From NCBI RefSeq assembly GCF_963921235.1, contig NC_086108.1, positions 55,616,001 through 55,680,000 on the forward strand: a stretch of DNA of 64,000 nt, given 5' to 3'. The stretch's first letter is position 1. Each line of letters starts with the position of its first letter. Shown here piece after piece: positions 8,781 to 17,361 of the stretch. The notes under the pieces were generated by a model that worked only from the letters and a program-made list of their open reading frames with translations, did not search any database and was not told the DNA's origin. The DNA is from Mobula hypostoma (taxonomy: Eukaryota). Both the position numbers and the translations under genes were made by a program.

Positions 8781-9351
8781 TGTAACTCTTGCTTCAGCTA
8801 GTGGCTTGATATAGACCCCTGGCCCCGCCAAACTTAAGAATTCTCATTTGGGTGGATGCTGCGCAATGTGTCCCCTGTTACAAATCAGTACCGCAAAATA
8901 ACAAACAGTACACAATATGCGATTAAACGATTGAGCTTTATAATTCTTCATTTGACTATATGGTGAGTAAAGAAAACAAAAAAAAGAAAAAGTGTCCATT
9001 CTCATGAAACAGTCTATTGCTCAAGGTTGGAGCTCACTGATAAGGCTGTTCATCCACCATCGACCTCCTCCGATCATCGCTGACCTTCAGACCCTCGCTG
9101 CAAGTTCACTCCGTCCGAGGTCTACCATCTCTCCCCATTCGTGTCTTCTTTCCTCATCTCTCCCCGGCAAAAGACTGCGATTTCCCGGCTCCCAGACGCA
9201 CAAGAAAGAACAACATCCCGCTCATTGGCTAGCATGCCCCGTTATCTCTGGTCGTAACCTAAACATTGCTGTTACAGAGAAGCCATCACCTCAGTGTGGA
9301 GCATTATGGAGAAGCCATTACATTAGCAGTGAAACTTTACAGCGTGTTACA
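8781..9351 (-). mobile_element. Solo LTR (Gypsy/ERV-type)
   Basis: Termini tgtaac...gttaca (TG..CA, 6-bp inverted). Flanks gagg/tagg (4-bp TSD with one mismatch). Homologous to 21224-21813. Strand is inferred. Confidence 0.8.
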
Positions 9352-9355
9352 TAGG

Positions 9356-9830
9356 CGACACAGATAAAATCCTGGGAGAGCTCAGCAGATCAGGCAGCAT
9401 CTCTGGAAAAGAGTAAACTGCCGACATTTGGGCTGAGAACCTTCTTCAGGACTGAGGGAAGGGGTGAAATGCCTGAATTAAAAGGTAGGGGAAGGGGAAA
9501 GAGGCTAGCTGGAAGGTGATAAGTGAAACCCCGGTTGGTGGGAAAGGTCAAAGGCTGGAGAAGAGTTAATTTGATAGGAGGGTAGAGTGAATAATAGGAG
9601 TAAGGGAAGGAAGGGTCCCAGGTGGAAATGACAGGCAGGTAAGAAGTAAAGGGTCAGAGTGTGGAACAAAGGGCGGGGGGGGGCGAAGGAGGATTTTTGT
9701 TCACCAGAAGGAGAAATCAATATTCATGCCATCAGGTTGGAGGCTAACCAGAAGGAATAAAAGCTGTTATTCCTCCACCCTGTGGGTCTCCTAATCTTGG
9801 CACAAGAGGAGGCCATAGATCAACATGTTG
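9356..9830 (-). mobile_element. Penelope-like element 3' fragment with a decayed hammerhead
   Basis: Reverse complement of the GIY-YIG C-terminus (LQPDGMNIDF-like), the pyrimidine tract and the terminal segment of 43270-43825. Confidence 0.8.
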
Positions 9831-10976
9831 GATAGGCACATAGAAGATAGGAAAATTGAGGGCTATGTAGGAGGGAAGGATTAGATTGATCTAGAGTAGG
9901 TTAAAAAGGTTGGCACAACATCATGAGCCAAAGGGCCTGTACTGTGTACTGTATCGTTCTATATTCTATGTACAGAGAAAGCTAATCTCGCAAGCTTGAG
10001 GCTTTGGTAATGCCAGACCTGCAGAGTTTCTTAAGTATTGGATATTTTCCTGTTAATATCCTAATATACTTTAAATTCATTTTTATTTTGAATATTATGC
10101 AGTATAATGAGTTTCCCAGCAAAACTGATAAGTTTAAGTGAAGAAGTAGAAACAGAACCTTCATAGGTGTGAAGGGAGTGGGAAGAGCTGGAGTCTGAGG
10201 TGTTGAGGAGAGCATTGAAAGCCCAGACTCCGGTCTGTGCAGAGGAGAGCAGGAGCCATCCAATCTGCAAAATCATTGGGATTTCTGAATAACTGGGCAA
10301 AATATAATCGGAGTTACATCATGAGTAGTGATAATATTCAAGCAAGTTAACGATGAACAATGTAGAGGATATTATAAGCTAGTGTACATTATTGGTATTG
10401 CGTTGTTAGAGTTAATCTTCCTATTAATTTGGATATTTAGTATTTAGTGCTAATATAACTAAGTTTAGTTGTGTTCCGATATAAACAGAAATTGCTGAAC
10501 AAGCCAGGCAGTTTTTGTGAAAAGCAAAACACAAATATTTCCTGGCCTGTTGAGTATTGCCAACATTTTCTATTTCAAATTAAGATTTACTGCATCTGCT
10601 GTTTTGTTTTGCTTTTTAATATAGGTGTGCTCAGTGTCTTTATCAAATCCATTGCACTTAACATGCATTTAATTTAGCAAAGTGCGATTGTATCATTTTA
10701 TTACTGGCTTATATTTTGTGCTTTCCACTGACAGATTGGCTTTGAATGTATTCATGGTGTGTTGTCTGTTCATTTTGCAAGAAAATGAATATACATGATT
10801 CGGATTTTCCAATACATATTTATATCAACACATTAAAATCCACAGTGGAAAGAGAAAGCAGTATAAAAGTTCCACCCACATATTTCCAAATATTACAAAG
10901 TAGAACTACTTATTTAATGATGGCATTTTCTGTTCAGTTACAAAATACACGTGGACTAAGATGTTAACTGTCCTGT

Positions 10977-11101
10977 GCTATCACCAGTGGGATCATCAGT
11001 TGATCTGCCACCTGTCTTCAGGAGTTTCGGCCCGCCTATGATCAAGACTCCCTCGAGGTGGTGGGCCAGCAGTGCTAAAGCACCACCTCCCACTGGTAAG
11101 C
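10977..11101 (-). ncRNA. Putative rearranged (non-circularly permuted) hammerhead ribozyme with a kink-turn, in the 3' UTR of the Hero-like element
   Basis: GUC at 11048-11046, GAAA at 11028-11025, CUGAUGA at 10999-10993. Stem III GGGAGU/ACUCCU, stem I UUGAUC/GAUCAA, plus four further helices (see findings). Confidence 0.75.
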
Positions 11102-11221
11102 TTAAAAACTTGGCATATGCCTCTATCAGAGTTATTGGTCACTTCCATCCAACAGATAGTCTACTCTTCAGGTCTCTATGCAACTACCGAAGGGTTTGCA
11201 AGATATGTATACACTGTCTGA

Positions 11222-14200
11222 CTATCTGCCCCTCTGGACATACTTGGTCCACACCCATGCTGACCCTTTCTCTGCTGCCTCAGCTACAGCCCTGCTGGTT
11301 GACTTGATCTCTCTTCTAGTGAAGCCAAGGTCACGCAGCCACTTCTGGAGAGTGAACGCAATAAACCCATGGCAGCCTACTTTGAGTGGATAGCATGAGA
11401 CCTTCCACCCTCTGTCTCTGCACTCTGATCTTAATTCTGCATACTTGGTTAACTTGCGCTCATGGGTTTCATCGATTTTGTCTTCCCAGGGGACTGTGAG
11501 TTCACCAATAACCGTTTCCCTACTGGTGTCAGACCATATGATTATATCTGGACGCAATGTAGTGAAAGCTATTGCTCCGGGAAATTGCCTTTCCCGTCCA
11601 GGTCAACCTTGACACACCAATCATTGGCTGAAGAAAGTATGCTTGATCGTGAGCCTATACTGTACACCCTTGACTTGGAGCCTTCTTTCACAAATGATAT
11701 GCGAAGTTCTGTGCAGCATGGGGCATGAGATAAGTTGTGCTGCAGTACTCTCTGCTCCACCGCTTCTGTTACAACTTTGAGAACATTGTTATGTCTCCAA
11801 GTGTACATGCCGCTGGAAAGATTGACTCTGCATGCACTCAAGATATGTTGAAGTGTTCTCTTCTCACCACAAGCAGCACACCTGTCTGTCTTAACTTCAT
11901 ACCAGGTGCTGAGGTTGGCAGGTGTTGGGAGCAGATCGTATGCTGCTCTGCATAAAAAAGAAATGCGGAGTGGTTCCATCTGCCACAGAACATTCCAAGA
12001 TAGGTGTCATTGTTCAACACTTTCCCACCGGGTCCAAGCCCCTTGTTTCGCCAGGCCAGCTGTTTCAGTTAACCTCTTCTCCTCTTCTACCTCTCGTATT
12101 TCTTGTGTTACAAGCTCACGGCGTTTCTTACCTATAGAAGATGACCACCACTTGTGGGTTGTCCATCCAAGTCCCTGGTGGCCTAGCTGGATAGCCCCAT
12201 CCTCCTCCTTGTGCTTCAATCTAGACTCTGCCTCATCAACTGCTACACGGGCTGACCACTTCCTGCCTGATCTCACATCCGGCCGGGTGTTCTTGATGAC
12301 AGGGTCTTTTGAGTCTCGAAGCATCAAGAATGATCTTACCTTGGCTACTTTGACCTCCTCAACAAGGGATTGCACTGGGATGGTAAGCTTTGTCTGGCTA
12401 CTGTGGATTGCAACATTGGTGAGGCTGCTCGGTACTCCAAGCCACTTCTTCACATACTTGTTATCTTCCGTTCCGTTGCCTCAACATGGGACATTGCCAC
12501 TTTGTAGACAGTTAGTGGCCACATTATCTGTGGCATCAGTCCGTACTGCAAGCACCACAACTTCAACTTGCTAGGCAAGCCACACTTGTCAACAGACATC
12601 AGAGCTCTGCTGATCTGTTTTCCTGTCTCTTGAACCCTCTCGGTGTCTCTCAGCTCCTCTGTGTACCATCGCCCGAGGCTCTAAACTGGTTGGTCCTGAA
12701 TGGATGGAATCTCCTCGCCACAAAGGGTGAAATGAAAGTCAACCAGCTTTCCTCTCCTAAGAACAAGGCTCCTTGAATTCTTGGTCTTGAACTTCATTCT
12801 TCCCCAGTCCATTAGCTCCTCAAGCCTAGATAGTACAATTTCCACTGCCTCCGTGCTGGGACCCAAAAGGGTAAGATCATCCATGAACGCTCGTATTGGT
12901 GGTAACTCCTCTCTGCCATCAAGTGCGACACCTGGTCCCACTGATTCTGCAGCCCTCACAATGACCTCCATGGCTAACACAAAAAGGATGGGTGAAATTG
13001 CACATCCCATTGGAATTCCAACATCCAAGCTCTGCCACCTAGTTGTAAACTGCTGAGTGGAAAACCTCATCTGGAAATCGTTGTAGTACTGAATAACAAA
13101 TTTCCTCACCTTAGCAGGAATCCATAGGAATTCCATCACAAACTCAATCAGGACATGGGGAACAGAACCATATGCATTTGCCAGATCAAGCCAAACTACA
13201 CCCCAGATTTCTTCTCAACCTTTTTGACTCCTGGATGGTATGCCATATCATACTAGAATGTTCAAGGCATCCTGGGAAGCCTGGTATTCCTGCCTTCTGC
13301 ACAGATGTATTTACTAATCCATTCTCAATCACAAATGAAGATATTTTTTCTGCCAGAATGCCAAACATAATCTTCCCCTCGACATTCAGGAGTAAAATTG
13401 GTTGGAACTGATTCAATGTAGAAGAATTCTCTTCCTTCGGGATGTATACTCCTTCAGCCTCACTCCATGACAAAGGAACAACACCTTGTCTCCACACCAC
13501 CTTTAACAATCTCGACAAGTATTTCCTCAGCTGTTCACTCTTCTTGAACACCTTATACGGCACTCCATTAGGTCCTGGCACTGAGCCTGACCTTGCCTTT
13601 CTGATGAACCGTTCAACTTCTGCCAGTTTGGGTTCTGACAGATCGAACTTCACTTCTGGCTTGGTAGGCTTCACAAGCCCTGAAATGTCAAGCAAAGGAG
13701 CCTCCTGCTGTTCGTTAGAGTAAGTGCTTGCTAGGTGATCTCAAGTTCTTGTTGAGAGATGTTAAGCTGCCCGCTCTTGCTTCGTTCAAACAGTTTCTTT
13801 GTGAACTCGTGAGGGTTCTCAAAGAACGACTTTCTTGCCTTCTCTCTCTTCTTTCTCTTTGTACATTGTGACTCTGCATGATGGAGTGATGCTAACTTTA
13901 TTTGAAAATGCTCTGGGAGATCAGCAAGCCCTGGCTTGTCACCCTCACTTGCTACCTTCCACCTCTGTCTCAACGATCTAAGCTCTTTCCTCAACCTACT
14001 AATCTCCTTCTGGCGCCTGCTTTGTTGCTGTGTAGGCTTTGTTTTCTTCAACTCAACCAAACCAAACCTGTACTATCCAACGTCGTAAATCATATCGCCC
14101 ATCACTTCCAACTTTCTCTTTGATGTTCCCCTGAGAGTGTTCTCCAACATCATACTGATATCCTCATCAAACACATGCCAAGCCTTCTCATCCGCGTTTG

Positions 14201-14761
14201 CTGGCCACTTGACCTTCCTCTTCTTCTCTACCTCCTCACCACCGCCATCATGCGAAGAATCTACCTGGGAACTGTGGTCTGAAACCTGACTTGGGTTATC
14301 TCTCGTCTGACCTGGAGTATGATGACACTCTCCAGAGTGAATCGCTGTGGCTTGTGAATCAGTGGTTGAAAAAAGACCACATCATCTGTGCTTGGTGAAG
14401 AAATCTCATCTTCATCCACTGGGGTGGAATAGCACTTCAACTTTGCTTGGTGGACTCGTAAACCTTTAATGCTGGAAAACGCTCTCCCACACCAACACAC
14501 TGGACACTCAGAGCCTCTTAGCCTAGCTCTTGGTCGTAGACGTTCCCTGTAATTAACTGTATTCGTCCGATTGGGTCCATCATTCTCCCTCCCTTTCAGA
14601 GGACCCCGAGGGCATGTTTCTCCATGTAAACTAGAAGCTTCAAGGGGTTGGTGCTCTTCTGAGCTGGTGCCCGGACTGCCAGTCCTGACACCCCCGGTGC
14701 CAGTCTTTCCTGGCTGTCCGCTGTCTCTCCACGCTGTCACCGGACTATTCCCGGTTGTCAA
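11222..14761 (-). pseudogene. Disrupted single ORF (ZnF-RT-CCHC-RLE) of the Hero-like element
   Basis: Seven ORF fragments (14261-14761, 13731-14060, 13186-13695, 12681-13139, 12007-12453, 11569-11979, 11222-11557) in the expected domain order, separated by stops and frameshifts. Confidence 0.9.
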
Positions 14762-14814
14762 CCAGACTATTCCTGGTAGTCACCTTCATAAAATAGATAC
14801 AATGATAATAGGGT

Positions 14815-15600
14815 AACACATACAAAATGCTGGAGGAACTTAGCAGGTCATGTAGCATCTGAGGAAAGGAATAAATAGTCGACATTTTGGGCTGAAGTCC
14901 TTCATCGGGATTGGAAAGAAAGGAGGAAGGTGCCAGAATATGAAGGTGGGGGTGAAGTGAGTAGCTGGGAGGTGATAGGTGGAAAATGTAAAGGCCTGAA
15001 GAAGAAAGAATCTGATAGGAGAGGAGAGTGGACCATGGGGAAAAAAGGGAAGAGGAGAGTCACCAGGGGGAGGTGTAGGCAGTTGAGGAGAAGAAAAGTG
15101 GTAAGAGGGGAACCAAAGTGGGAAATGGAAAAAGAGGGAACGGGAAGGGGGAACAATTACTGGAAGTCAGAGAAATTGATGTTCATGCCATCCATTTGGA
15201 GGCTTCCCAGATGGAATATGAAGCGTTGTTGCTCCAACATGAAAGTGGCAGTAGAGGTGACCTCAGGCTGACATGTCAGAATAGGAATAGGGATTGCAAT
15301 TAAAATGGCTGCCCACCGGGAAATCCTGCTCGTTGCAGATTGAGTGAAGGTGCTCGGCAAAGCGGCCCCCCAATCTATGTCAAGTAGATTGGAGGAGCAA
15401 CACCTCATATTCCATCTTCCCCCCCACCTTCTTATTCTGCCTTCTTCTACCCTTCCTTTCCAGTCCTGATGAAGGGTCTTGGCTTGAAACATCGACTGTA
15501 AATTCCTTTCCATAGCTGCTGCCTGATGTACTGAGTTCCTCCAGCATTCTGTATATGTTACTCTGAATTTCCAGCATCTCCAGAATCTCTTGTGTTTGTG
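14815..15600. mobile_element. Penelope-like 3' fragments in inverted arrangement
   Basis: Minus copy at about 14815-15375 encodes EQQRFIFHLGSLQMDGMNINFSDF. Plus copy at about 15385-15600 carries the terminal segment. Confidence 0.85.
15461..15498 (+). ncRNA. Minimal Penelope-type hammerhead ribozyme (slightly decayed)
   Basis: CAGTC-CTGATGA-AGG(gtcttgg)CTT-GAAA-CA-TC-GACTG. Confidence 0.65.
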
Positions 15601-16381
15601 ATAATGATTATAGTTTTTTTAAAACCAAATAAAAGGACAATGAAACATGAGCAGTAATCAGTAAATAGAATGCTACGCTGGCTTGAAATAGAGGATTGCT
15701 GCAAAATGTTAAATTTCAATATTTTGATTATTTTTTCAATTTTAACAAATTCATCTATGAAAAACAACACTATTTCCAGAAGCTTACAAGAGGCAGTAAA
15801 AGTAAACTATTGTAGAAATCCACGCTGAAAAATGCTGATCCGAATGATGAGGTACATAGTCTGCAATCAAAGCATAGTCACGTGTTTATGCAGCTGCTTC
15901 CAACTATTGATATTTCTAAGCAACAATGCATAAATTTACGCTTTACCCCCTGCAGAATGAAGGATGAGCCAGCTGTCTTAGCAGATAATTAGAGGTTTGT
16001 ACCTCTAAAACTCCAACTCTCCTAGCCTACCATTGATTACAGTTTGGATGCTTCCTTGTAGCTTTGTCTCTGTTTCCTTGCTTGATTATTGCCAGATTAT
16101 CAGTTTCAAATTACTTAGTAATTTCAGCTGCTGGACCTATGGATGCCATTTGCTATTGTGTAGTATTCCGACATGTATCAATCAGTGCTTTTACATGTGT
16201 GAAAGAGGGCTGATCAGCATCTATTTGTGTACATACCAATAAAAATTGCCCAATATGCTGTGCAATCTTTCCGTAACACCTTGTGTCAGCTTATTGTCTC
16301 CAGACTTTGTGGTCAATCTTGGAAGAATGACTTATACTGCTGACCTTAAAGGAAATTGCCCAAAGATCTAGTGATCCCTTG

Positions 16382-16578
16382 AGCAACACACACAAAATGC
16401 TGGAGGAACTCAGCAGGCCAGGCAGCATCTATGGAATAAAGTGTAGTCGACGTTTTGGGCCAAGACTCTTTGGCAGGACTGGAGATAAAAGAGGAGGAGT
16501 AGGCCTGCTGAGTTCCTCCAGCATTGTGTGTGTGTGTGTGTTGCTTGGATTACCAGCATCTGCAGATTTTCTCTTGTT
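16382..16578. mobile_element. Fold-back Penelope terminal remnant
   Basis: aatgctggaggaactcagcaggcc ... ggcctgctgagttcctccagcatt inverted arms around a decayed hammerhead. Confidence 0.8.
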
Positions 16579-16616
16579 TGTGGCAATCTTTCGAACATGT
16601 GTTCAACCATTCTCAC

Positions 16617-16709
16617 CATGATCGTTGTCAGCTACCAGTTTTGGCGAGTTTCTGGCAAAACTACCAGCAACAAAGCAGGTATTGACGAATTCTGTTGGAC
16701 TCAACAAAC
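16617..16709 (-). CDS. Candidate 93-nt host exon (phase 1-1), product unknown
   Basis: Acceptor ttttcacttccag|G, donor CATG|gtgaga, one open frame (G)LLSPTEFVNTCFVAGSFARNSPKLVADNDH, locally CpG-rich. No recognised homology. Confidence 0.3.
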
Positions 16710-17361
16710 CTGGAAGTGAAAACACAATTTTCATTTCACCATTTAAGCAATATATAGCTCTGACCAGCATTTCACAGCTAAAATGAATTCCTTTATTTGT
16801 TTGCTTTACTTCTCATTGTCCTCCATCAGACAGTTCTACAACATTGAAATCATTTGAGCAATCCTGGCATCAGCTTCTTCTAAAAAATAAAATAAAAATT
16901 GGAACGTATACGTATAGTTATGGTTGCAGCTGAAAGATCATAATTTTTAAAGAAATCCAAAGCAATCCAAGTCCATTCACACAATTAATTTATTTCATAG
17001 GATTATAGCAATTATTAATTGGTAAAAATGATTTGGTACATAATTAGAACTTTGGTTACATCTCATAAAAACAAAAGAAACCATGAAGTCTAGACTGTTC
17101 GGCCCCTTGTGTCTACTTTGTTGTTCAGTAAGTGTTGCCTCAGAGCCACTTTCCCACACAAACTCCATATCCTTTGATTTATTAATATCCAAAAATATAT
17201 TAATCTCTATCTTGAATATATTGAGGACACATTTCTCTGCTCTCTGGTGATTTGTCATCCACTTATCTCAATCTTCTCAAGGCTCCTGGGTTATTTTATG
17301 TAGAAGGTACAATGTAAATAACTGTGCTTCTCATAAGATAATACAATTCCACTAATATAAA

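What the first reader, a model, noticed from the sequence alone, without database searches (positions are those of the whole stretch)
10977..11101. Rearranged hammerhead ribozyme with a four-way junction and kink-turn in the 3' UTR of a Hero/R2-group retrotransposon
Seen in the sequence (minus strand, 5'->3'): GCUU-ACCAGUGGGA[P1] GGUGGUGC-UUUA-GCACUGCU[P2] GGCCC[P3] A CCACCU[P4] CGA GGGAGU[III] C^ UUGAUC[I] AUAGGC GGGCC[P3'] GAA ACUCCU[III'] GAA GAC AGGUGG[P4'] CA GAUCAA[I'] CUGAUGA UCCCACUGGU[P1']. All hammerhead core nucleotides are present with the correct neighbours: GUC lies between stems III and I, CUGAUGA follows stem I, and GAAA precedes stem III. The strand order is NUH -> GAAA -> CUGAUGA, which is not a circular permutation of types I, II or III. 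There is no ordinary stem II: the strand after CUGAUGA pairs upstream (P1, 10 bp, 11097-11088 with 10992-10983), the strand before GAAA pairs upstream (P3, a pseudoknot), and P1-P2-P3 abut with no unpaired bases, forming a perfect four-way junction on the tandem G.A pairs. Stem III continues into P4 through a textbook kink-turn (3-nt GAA bulge, tandem G.A/A.G). Established: R2 and several other LINEs use 5' HDV-like ribozymes and Penelope elements use hammerheads; I recall that natural non-circularly permuted hammerheads have been reported, so novelty must be checked. Inference: a self-cleaving or ligating, possibly L7Ae-family-protein-bound RNA module shapes the 3' end of Hero transcripts. 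The integrated copy retains about 100 nt downstream of the predicted cut (11046/11045), implying regulated cleavage, religation, or that the cut strands stay paired during reverse transcription.
Basis: partly seen in the sequence, partly recalled or inferred. Interest (0 to 1): 0.92.

Follow-up and report, generated by a model that had tools for sequence, protein, structure and literature searches.

The report
Permuted hammerhead ribozyme in LINE tail
The untranslated tail of a jumping gene (an R2-like LINE) folds into a rearranged hammerhead, a self-cutting RNA motif; distant relatives keep the same fold, so it is probably a working ribozyme of a shape and setting not described before.

Summary
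A covariance model built only from 8 distant relatives in metagenome contigs finds the window's motif at 10985-11095(-), 73.7 bits, E 4e-17. It is the only hit in the 64 kb.

The module lies 3' of the ORF in 48 of 60 relatives with enough flank, 53 of 60 with a strict motif scan. All six helices covary: 93.5% paired against 61.5% shuffled, and 34 of 36 pairs change on both sides. The hammerhead core is near-invariant, with N7 free and H17 almost never G.

There is no ordinary stem II. A flush four-way junction (P1/P2/P3) replaces it. A kink-turn signature links stem III to P4 in 31 of 52 rows.

The Site-GAAA-CUGAnGA order was published in 2023 as "type-SGC" (PMC10085705), for circular RNAs and with a normal stem II. 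The LINE setting, the split stem II and the k-turn were not found in print.

Cleavage is untested. Most full-length copies are partial tandems, so I favour processing of co-transcripts. This is a new variant of a known kind.

The parts
10936..14783 (-). One copy, about 3.85 kb, of an R2-group (restriction-like-endonuclease) LINE. Its reading frame is broken in this copy.
   Evidence: Other copies share the 5' boundary at 14783. Flanks diverge after the 3' tail near 10936 (loose ends at 10936/10942). RVT_1 and zf-RVT hits on ORF pieces. ORF pieces lie in several frames.
10936..11221 (-). 3' UTR, about 286 nt
   Evidence: The stop codon ends 222 nt before CUGAUGA in copies with an open C-terminal frame. 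The last minus-strand ORF piece is 11222..11557.
10983..11097 (-). Whole hammerhead module, P1 to P1'
   Evidence: Sequence read. Model R1 hit at 10985-11095.
11088..11097 (-). P1 5' strand
   Evidence: Pairs with 10983-10992. 8 of 8 counted P1 pairs change on both sides in relatives.
11068..11087 (-). P2 hairpin, flush with P1 and P3
   Evidence: 8 of 8 pairs covary.
11063..11067 (-). P3 5' strand. It takes the place of the stem II strand that normally follows CUGAnGA.
   Evidence: Pairs with 11029-11033. 91.4% paired, 4 of 5 pairs compensatory. This helix was not part of the model that made the alignment.
11056..11061 (-). P4 5' strand
   Evidence: Pairs with 11008-11013. 6 of 6 pairs covary.
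11053..11055 (-). Non-bulged strand of the k-turn-like loop (N-G-A)
11047..11052 (-). Stem III 5' strand, ending in U16.1
   Evidence: Pairs with 11020-11025. 98% paired. The core pair A15.1-U16.1 is U-A in 51 of 51 counted rows, with one gapped row.
11045..11046 (-). Predicted cleavage site, between C17 (11046) and U1.1 (11045)
   Evidence: By analogy with hammerheads. H17 is U 23, C 17, A 10, G 1 and 1 gapped, among 52 rows. Cleavage was not tested.
11040..11045 (-). Stem I 5' strand
   Evidence: Pairs with 11000-11005. The first 3 bp are 96.8% paired and 3 of 3 compensatory. This helix was not part of the model.
11029..11033 (-). P3 3' strand, directly 5' of GAAA
11025..11028 (-). G12 A13 A14 A15.1 (GAAA)
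   Evidence: G12 51 of 52, A13 52 of 52, A14 51 of 52, A15.1 51 of 52.
11020..11025 (-). Stem III 3' strand
11014..11019 (-). Bulged strand of the k-turn-like loop (3-nt bulge, G-A, N)
   Evidence: The NNN-GA-N / NGA signature is present in 31 of 52 rows.
11008..11013 (-). P4 3' strand
11000..11005 (-). Stem I 3' strand
10993..10999 (-). C3-A9 (CUGAUGA)
   Evidence: C3 49, U4 52, G5 52, A6 51, G8 50, A9 52, each of 52. N7 is U 26, C 13, A 10, G 3.
10983..10992 (-). P1 3' strand, directly 3' of A9
   Evidence: An insertion after A9 occurs in 1 of 52 rows.
10936..10982 (-). 3' tail of the element, ending in a short repeat-like word
   Evidence: 30 copies agree up to here and then diverge.

Best explanation
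Window 10983-11097 (minus strand) is one copy of a conserved RNA module in the 3' UTR of an R2-group LINE.

What it is. It is a hammerhead ribozyme whose three core blocks stand in the order Site, GAAA, CUGAnGA, which is the published 'type-SGC' order. It has one further rearrangement. The strand that should follow CUGAnGA as stem II lies upstream of the cleavage site. As a result the G.A pairs of the core abut a perfectly paired four-way junction (P1, P2, P3) instead of a stem II. Stem III runs through a kink-turn-like bend into P4. P4 ties the far ends of P3 and stem I together.

Shown: the fold and the core are under selection across distant relatives.

Inferred:
- The RNA cuts itself after C11046.
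- Because full-length copies usually sit behind a partial upstream copy, the module also lies about 111 nt before the next unit's 5' end. There it would free that unit from read-through or multi-unit transcripts, as HDV-like ribozymes do for R2.
- In the terminal 3' UTR, about 27 base pairs span the cut. They would hold the pieces together or allow religation, so reverse transcriptase copies across.

My odds:
- A real hammerhead-type core under selection: about 0.85.
- Active cleavage, alone or helped by protein: about 0.7.
- The co-transcript processing role: about 0.35.
For: Detection:
- The model built without the window hits the window once, E 4e-17.
- The module is found by the model in 48 of 60 relatives with at least 200 nt of 3' flank, and in 53 of 60 with the strict scan added.

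Covariation:
- 36 pairs are 93.5% paired, against 61.5% in shuffles.
- 34 of 36 pairs change on both sides.
- The covariation score is 0.787, against 0.214 in shuffles (0 of 500 reach it) and at most 0.135 with slid partners.
- P3 and stem I were not in the model that made the alignment. They score 91.4% and 96.8% paired, with 4 of 5 and 3 of 3 pairs compensatory.

Core and junction:
- The core varies only where hammerheads vary, at N7 and H17.
- The junction is flush. An insertion after A9 occurs in 1 of 52 rows.

Spread in this genome:
- The GAAA-to-CUGAnGA half of the module, written as a pattern, matches 2900 places, against 102 for the reversed control.
- 7 of 7 sampled places from several sequence families gave full-length model matches of 30-106 bits.

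Tandem layout:
- There are 58 exact 5'-end words and 35 exact tail-to-head junction words.
- 5 of 5 and 17 of 20 inspected 5' ends carry a partial upstream copy.
- The model also finds upstream modules in L038, L061, L065 and L090.

Precedent: type-SGC hammerheads cleave in vitro (PMC10085705, sections read).
Against: - No cleavage assay exists for this form.
- Of 559 exact copies of the 29 nt after the cut site, 0 have four non-element bases before it.
- The upstream partial copies are 27 to over 1500 nt long. None starts near 111; the nearest start at 92-96.
- Contigs from runs guessed to be RNA cross the cut site (records 9, 11, 17, 25).
- 9 of 52 rows carry a core defect, as decayed copies would. 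A tenth flagged row, L084, is an alignment slip.
- In Penelope-like elements the hammerhead was not needed for insertion in vitro (PMC11167929, passages). A processing role is therefore not guaranteed by analogy.
- The model's seeds all had the core, so its hits lean towards sequences that have the core.
Confidence: 0.62

Rival explanations
1. The module is a non-catalytic protein-binding fold. The element's reverse transcriptase recognises it to start target-primed reverse transcription, as R2 proteins recognise their structured 3' UTRs. The hammerhead core is kept as a structural scaffold only.
For: - It sits in the 3' UTR about 50 nt from the tail, where R2 proteins bind a pseudoknotted RNA (abstracts of PMC12222951 and PMC11194090, seen in the listings).
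- Copies keep both sides of the cut site, with no pile-up of ends there.
- The PLE hammerhead is dispensable for insertion in vitro and needs protein to cut (PMC11167929).
Against: - The invariant positions are exactly the catalytic set, with freedom only at N7 and H17 and G avoided at 17. A mere scaffold would not need this pattern.
- A second repeat family, 64 exact copies, keeps only the last ~90 nt and lacks the Site and GAAA blocks. If the same enzyme moves it, which is not shown, the full fold is not needed for recognition.
Confidence: 0.2
2. The module works mainly as a ligase or circulariser. Two cuts in a tandem transcript give a unit-length RNA. Its ends are rejoined through the same fold into a circle, and rolling reverse transcription on that circle makes the partial tandems, as proposed for retrozymes.
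For: - The partial-tandem layout has one constant tail-to-head junction (35 exact copies).
- The upstream pieces vary in length.
- About 27 bp hold the two cleavage products in register.
- Circular hammerhead RNAs are known in animals (abstract of PMC7229834, listing).
Against: - No circular junction can be told apart from the genomic tandem junction.
- No joints were reported in the laid runs apart from one 51-nt skip in a single contig.
- Template jumping by R2-type enzymes, or transcripts that start in the upstream copy, explain the same layout without a circle.
Confidence: 0.1
3. The resemblance is chance: ordinary UTR hairpins happen to carry CUGAUGA, GAAA and GUC.
For: No Rfam family, hammerhead models included, matches at E up to 10.
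Against. The same arrangement recurs with compensatory changes in dozens of lineages, while slid and shuffled controls fail.
Confidence: 0.01

Closest known systems
Type-SGC hammerhead ribozymes (HRIMA-1 and variants). Eckert, Friedrich, Weinberg and Weinberg 2023, PMC10085705. I read the abstract, sections 13, 15 and 18, and searched the supplement.
   Same: The block order is the same: Site, GAAA, CUGAnGA. The core is the same. Stem I runs by a short linker into the strand before GAAA. The core helices form pseudoknots. The published forms were shown to cleave in vitro.
   Different: [quoted passage not shown] Here that pairing is absent (46.5% paired against 44.2% in shuffles; the 10.1-11.1 pair forms in 3 of 51 rows). 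A four-way junction replaces it, so their 'Block C' is interrupted.
- P4 and the k-turn are new.
- The published examples come from metatranscriptome contigs that also carry hairpin ribozymes. Apart from one bacterial RefSeq record, the supplement says all accessions are from IMG/M, and no retrotransposon context is mentioned.
Minimal hammerheads in the pseudo-LTRs of Penelope-like elements. PMC4209133, abstract in the listing. PMC11167929, abstract and passages.
   Same: A hammerhead sits in the repeated UTR of a retroelement that inserts as tandem or partial-tandem copies. In both cases the role of the ribozyme in transposition is unclear.
   Different: PLE hammerheads are type I, minimal, and carried by GIY-YIG elements. 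Here the element is an R2-like LINE with no GIY-YIG hit, and the ribozyme is permuted and large, about 115 nt.
5' ribozymes of LINEs: HDV-like in R2 (PMC3774820, abstract in listings) and twister variants in Perere-3 (PMC8501958, abstract).
   Same: Self-cleaving RNAs carried by non-LTR retrotransposons free the element RNA from co-transcripts.
   Different: The ribozyme classes differ. Those ribozymes lie at the element's own 5' end. Here the module lies in the 3' UTR and reaches a 5' end only through the tandem layout.
R2 3' UTR protein-binding pseudoknot (PMC12222951 and PMC11194090, abstracts in listings only).
   Same: A structured, pseudoknotted 3' UTR in the same superfamily of elements.
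   Different: No hammerhead core is reported there. I did not read the full texts.
Kink-turn motif. The definition is recalled, not taken from a call.
   Same: A 3-nt bulge is followed by tandem G.A pairs, with a canonical helix (stem III) on the 5' side of the bulge. This holds in 31 of 52 rows.
   Different: In 21 of 52 rows other loops replace it, for example a 6-nt bulge on the opposite strand. A bend rather than a k-turn as such may be what is kept. Protein binding was not tested.

Membership tests
Hammerhead ribozyme (core definition) | CUGAnGA with C3, U4, G5, A6, G8 and A9 conserved and N7 free | tested here: met
   49, 52, 52, 51, 50 and 52 of 52. N7 is U 26, C 13, A 10, G 3.
Hammerhead ribozyme (core definition) | GAAA with an A15.1-U16.1 pair, and H17 not G | tested here: met
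   G12 51, A13 52, A14 51, each of 52. The U-A pair is present in 51 of 51 counted rows. H17 is G in 1 of 52.
Hammerhead ribozyme (core definition) | Stems I and III flank the site and covary | tested here: met
   Stem III is 98% paired, with 5 of 6 pairs compensatory. Stem I (3 bp counted) is 96.8% paired, 3 of 3 compensatory.
Hammerhead ribozyme (core definition) | Stem II formed by the strands next to A9 and G12 | tested here: not met
   46.5% paired against 44.2% in shuffles. The 10.1-11.1 pair forms in 3 of 51 rows. P1 and P3 of a four-way junction take its place.
Hammerhead ribozyme (core definition) | Site-specific self-cleavage 3' of H17 | not testable with these tools
   Only contigs were available for the runs guessed to be RNA. 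They cross the site.
Hammerhead ribozyme (core definition) | Match to an Rfam hammerhead model | tested here: not met
   No hammerhead hit at E up to 10 in window 9000-17000 or in 7 other copies.
Type-SGC hammerhead (PMC10085705) | 5'-to-3' order Site, GAAA, CUGAnGA | tested here: met
Type-SGC hammerhead (PMC10085705) | Uninterrupted Block C: CUGAnGA followed by the stem II strand | tested here: not met
Type-SGC hammerhead (PMC10085705) | Helix joining the free sides of stems I and II | tested here: inconclusive
   P4 joins the far ends of P3 and stem I but pairs with a strand upstream of stem III. This is a different connectivity.
Kink-turn | 3-nt bulge plus tandem sheared G.A pairs between a canonical and a non-canonical helix | tested here: met
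   The sequence signature is present in the window and in 31 of 52 rows. Geometry and protein binding were not tested.
R2-group (restriction-like endonuclease) LINE | RT domain followed by a CCHC finger and a PD..(D/E)..K nuclease motif | tested here: met
   RVT_1 and zf-RVT. Invariant C240, C243, H251, C256, R349-P350-D351, E366, E372 and K382 in 16 relatives. The best solved matches are R2 proteins, E 1.6e-49. Reading the motif as a nuclease is recalled knowledge.
Hero clade | Placement with Hero reference elements in an RT tree | not tested
   No named Hero reference sequence was available. Sources name homologues only as uncharacterised or R2-related.
Penelope-like element | GIY-YIG endonuclease | tested here: not met
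   No GIY-YIG family among the Pfam hits of the window family's C-terminal fragment or of two full-length homologues.

The most novel reading that the evidence does not exclude
R2-type LINEs across animals carry a previously unseen hammerhead topology: SGC order, stem II split into a four-way junction, and closure by a k-turn. It would act as a reversible nick. The RNA cuts and rejoins within a fold that never falls apart. Through palindromic P2 loops it would pair two element RNAs. Together these would let the reverse transcriptase pass from one template to the next and build the partial tandems. This would be the first ribozyme known to serve the 3' end and the template switching of a LINE.
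Probability: 0.2. Interest if true: 0.92.

Novelty: new variant of a known kind. Interest (0 to 1): 0.8.

Why it matters
- It adds a third group of retroelements with hammerheads, R2-like LINEs, beside Penelope-like elements and retrozymes. This one animal genome holds thousands of copies, and the module recurs in many unrelated contigs.
- It widens what a hammerhead can look like. The helix next to the G.A pairs can be replaced by a junction, so descriptor searches that demand a stem II miss such forms.
- It gives a compact, testable RNA, about 115 nt, for asking how cleavage, ligation and protein binding are combined in a LINE tail. This bears on R2-type systems now used for gene insertion.

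Tried and rejected
1. Rfam with permissive thresholds gave no ribozyme family. Only chance-level hits appeared, including C/D-box snoRNA models at E 2-7 that share the UGAUGA word. Rejected as chance.
2. A protein scan of viral contigs found no relative.
3. The first MAFFT alignments (A2, A3) were misaligned in the 5' half. I did not use them for counts.
4. I searched for copies whose 5' end lies at the cut site and found 0. The upstream partial copies show no pile-up at 111 nt.
5. Laid runs were contigs only, and no begin or end places were reported. Two runs guessed to be RNA (X9, X13) show higher word depth over 10937-11031. The step lies near 11031, not 11045. It coincides with loose ends at 11024, the boundary of the second repeat family. 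I do not read it as cleavage.
6. Six rows have 7 bp and the remaining 46 of 53 have 6 or fewer. It is not a conserved feature.
7. A single-sequence search of the solved structures with the C-terminal fragment gave nothing. The profile search did.
8. Earlier notes of this scan list only Penelope-type hammerheads. There were none for this sequence or for these words.

Full report
**Observation.** All stated coordinates hold: P1 is 11097-11088 with 10992-10983, C17 is 11046, GAAA is 11028-11025 and CUGAUGA is 10999-10993. A thermodynamic fold recovers the nested helices P1, P2 and P3 (-55.1 kcal/mol, z -3.25). Rfam gives no ribozyme hit at E up to 10.

**Setting.**
- The motif lies in the 3' UTR of a LINE copy about 3.85 kb long, spanning 14783 to about 10936 on the minus strand. 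The 5' boundary is shared with other copies. Thirty copies agree up to the tail and then diverge.
- The window's copy has a broken frame and carries RVT_1 and zf-RVT pieces.
- One other copy, L026, has an open C-terminal frame of 458 residues that ends 222 nt before CUGAUGA. Aligned with 15 homologues it shows an invariant CCHC finger and an R-P-D ... E ... E ... K pattern.
- A profile of these proteins matches solved R2 proteins best (E 1.6e-49), ahead of LINE-1 ORF2p. No GIY-YIG domain is found. The element is therefore an R2-group LINE. The label 'Hero' could not be tested.
- Homologues occur in fishes, lamprey, amphioxus and a scallop.
- The family is young and abundant. The first look gave 1569 candidates, and the best 40 are 98-100% identical. 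The 29 nt after the predicted cut occur 559 times exactly.

**Comparative test.** Copies within the family are too alike to inform. I therefore fetched 79 loci of relatives with 31-59% protein identity from metagenome contigs.
Of these, 41 lie just 3' of the ORF end, among the 60 loci with at least 200 nt of flank. Three lie in upstream tandem copies and 4 are stray.
- Eleven of the 19 flank-bearing loci without a strict hit show the same module with a single defect.
- I built a covariance model from 8 of these relatives, without the window and with only P1, P2, P4 and stem III as pairs.
- Over the window plus all 79 loci (315 kb) the model gives 53 hits at E of 0.01 or less. One of them is the window at 10985-11095(-), 73.7 bits, E 4e-17, its only hit there.
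- The model finds the module in 48 of the 60 loci with flank. Model or strict scan together find it in 53 of 60. Seven loci have none.

**Covariation.** Counts were made on the model's alignment (52 distinct rows) with the full pseudoknotted structure of 36 pairs.
- 93.5% of cells pair, against 61.5% in shuffles.
- 34 of 36 pairs change on both sides.
- The covariation score is 0.787, against 0.214 in shuffles (0 of 500 reach it) and at most 0.135 when partners are slid.
- P3 and the first three pairs of stem I were not part of the model, so the alignment was not fitted to them. They are 91.4% and 96.8% paired, with 4 of 5 and 3 of 3 pairs compensatory.
- Caveats: rows are related, cells count sequences rather than events, and P1, P2, P4 and stem III were fitted by the model.

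**Core.** Counts are.
- In the 52 rows C3 is kept in 49, U4 in 52, G5 in 52, A6 in 51, G8 in 50 and A9 in 52.
- G12 is kept in 51, A13 in 52 and A14 in 51. The A15.1-U16.1 pair is U-A in all 51 counted rows.
- N7 is U 26, C 13, A 10, G 3. H17 is U 23, C 17, A 10, G 1, with one gapped row.
- This is the hammerhead pattern: freedom at N7, and H rather than G at 17.
- Nine rows carry a core defect, as expected for decayed single copies. A tenth flagged row, L084, is an alignment slip (one search shows it intact).
- The seeds all had the core, which biases hits towards it.

**Junction and bend.**
- The pairing that would make an ordinary stem II, between the strand before GAAA and the strand after CUGAnGA, is not supported. 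It is 46.5% paired against 44.2% in shuffles, and the core-adjacent pair forms in 3 of 51 rows.
- Instead the strand after A9 pairs far upstream (P1), and the strand before G12 pairs with a strand just 5' of P4 (P3). P1, P2 and P3 abut without unpaired bases. An insertion after A9 occurs in 1 of 52 rows.
- Read on a circle, the block order is that of the SGC/CSG/GCS class, with two helices inserted between A9 and the stem II strand.
- Between stem III and P4, 31 of 52 rows have the k-turn signature: N-G-A opposite a 3-nt bulge, G-A, N.
- Other lineages have a different asymmetric loop, so a sharp bend may be what is selected.
- Whether the fold is sterically sound was not modelled.

**What is known.**
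- Eckert et al. 2023 (PMC10085705) described natural 'type-SGC' hammerheads with the same block order and showed cleavage in vitro. I read the abstract and sections 13, 15 and 18, and searched the supplement. [quoted passage not shown] They were found with hairpin ribozymes in metatranscriptomes, and no retrotransposon context is mentioned.
- Full-text searches for hammerhead together with Hero/NeSL/non-LTR, restriction-like endonuclease, four-way junction/kink-turn, type-SGC and related terms found no paper that links such a ribozyme to LINEs.
- The library lacks most subscription journals, so this is not proof of absence.

**Clues to function.**
1. *Tandem layout.* Full-length copies are mostly partial tandems. 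All 5 other 5' ends first inspected are preceded by the 3' end of another copy. The genome holds 58 exact 5'-end words and 35 exact tail-to-head junction words. In 20 junction loci, 17 have an upstream piece detectable by BLAST, 27 to over 1500 nt long. Upstream modules also occur in four metagenome lineages. The module therefore also lies about 111 nt before a unit's 5' end, as hammerheads do in the pseudo-LTRs of Penelope-like elements (PMC11167929).
2. *No trace of cut ends.* None of the copies that match the 29-nt word has four non-element bases before the cut site (559 copies match the word). No upstream piece starts near 111. Either templates are uncut or religated, or the enzyme copies across a nick held by about 27 bp.
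3. *A second repeat family.* This family has 64 exact copies, often as direct repeats about 4.1 kb apart. It shares only the last ~90 nt and lacks the Site and GAAA blocks.
4. *Other lineages in this genome.* A pattern for the GAAA-to-CUGAnGA half matches 2900 places, against 102 for the reversed control. Seven of 7 sampled places from several sequence families carry the full module.
5. *Sequencing runs.* These gave contigs only. They cross the cut site and cannot show ends.

**Reading.** The fold and the catalytic core are under selection (shown). Self-cleavage after C11046 is the simplest reason for that pattern (inferred). I favour processing of read-through or multi-unit transcripts at the upstream copy, with the tightly paired fold tolerating or reversing the cut in the terminal UTR. 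This role rests on layout alone. The main rival is a protein-binding scaffold for priming. A circularising role is a variant of the main reading. Chance is excluded.

**Verdict.** This is a real, conserved RNA. It is a new variant of a known kind: a hammerhead of SGC order with a split stem II and a k-turn, in a new biological setting.

Noticed in passing
Alignment A5, P2 hairpins of L031-L109 (for example L037:1787-1811). The window's P2, 11068-11087, lacks the feature.: 28 of 51 P2 hairpins carry a perfect palindrome of at least 6 nt at their apex. Seven different words occur (UGAUCA 14, UGGCCA 6, GACGUC 4, and others). Shuffled loops give a mean of 4.2 and a maximum of 11. This suggests loop-loop pairing of two RNAs. 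It was not tested.
   Followed up: partly
L116-L125 (own genome), matching window 10936-11024 only: A second repeat family, 64 exact copies, shares only the last ~90 nt of the LINE from just after GAAA. Its upstream sequence is unrelated. It often occurs as direct repeats about 4.1-4.8 kb apart. It may be a non-autonomous or LTR-like derivative that borrowed the tail.
   Followed up: partly
Own genome; examples L146-L152: The GAAA-to-CUGAnGA half of the module matches 2900 places against 102 for the control. At least five distinct sequence families are visible, and 7 of 7 sampled places have the whole module.
   Followed up: partly
window 10937-11031 against 11032-11126: In two runs guessed to be RNA (X9, X13), contig word depth is several-fold to about 40-fold higher over the last ~95 nt than just upstream. 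The DNA run shows about 3-fold. The step fits the boundary of the second family (loose ends at 11024), not the cut site.
   Followed up: partly
window 16403-16518: A 17-bp perfect inverted repeat around an 82-nt spacer drew chance-level Rfam hits on both strands. Similar words appear in the flanks of other loci (L009), so it is probably another repeat.
   Followed up: no
L128, L130 and L136 (own genome): Three of 17 upstream partial copies begin 92-96 nt from the tail, at the P3'/GAAA edge. This is close to where the second family's homology starts. It may be a stop or switch point of reverse transcription.
   Followed up: no
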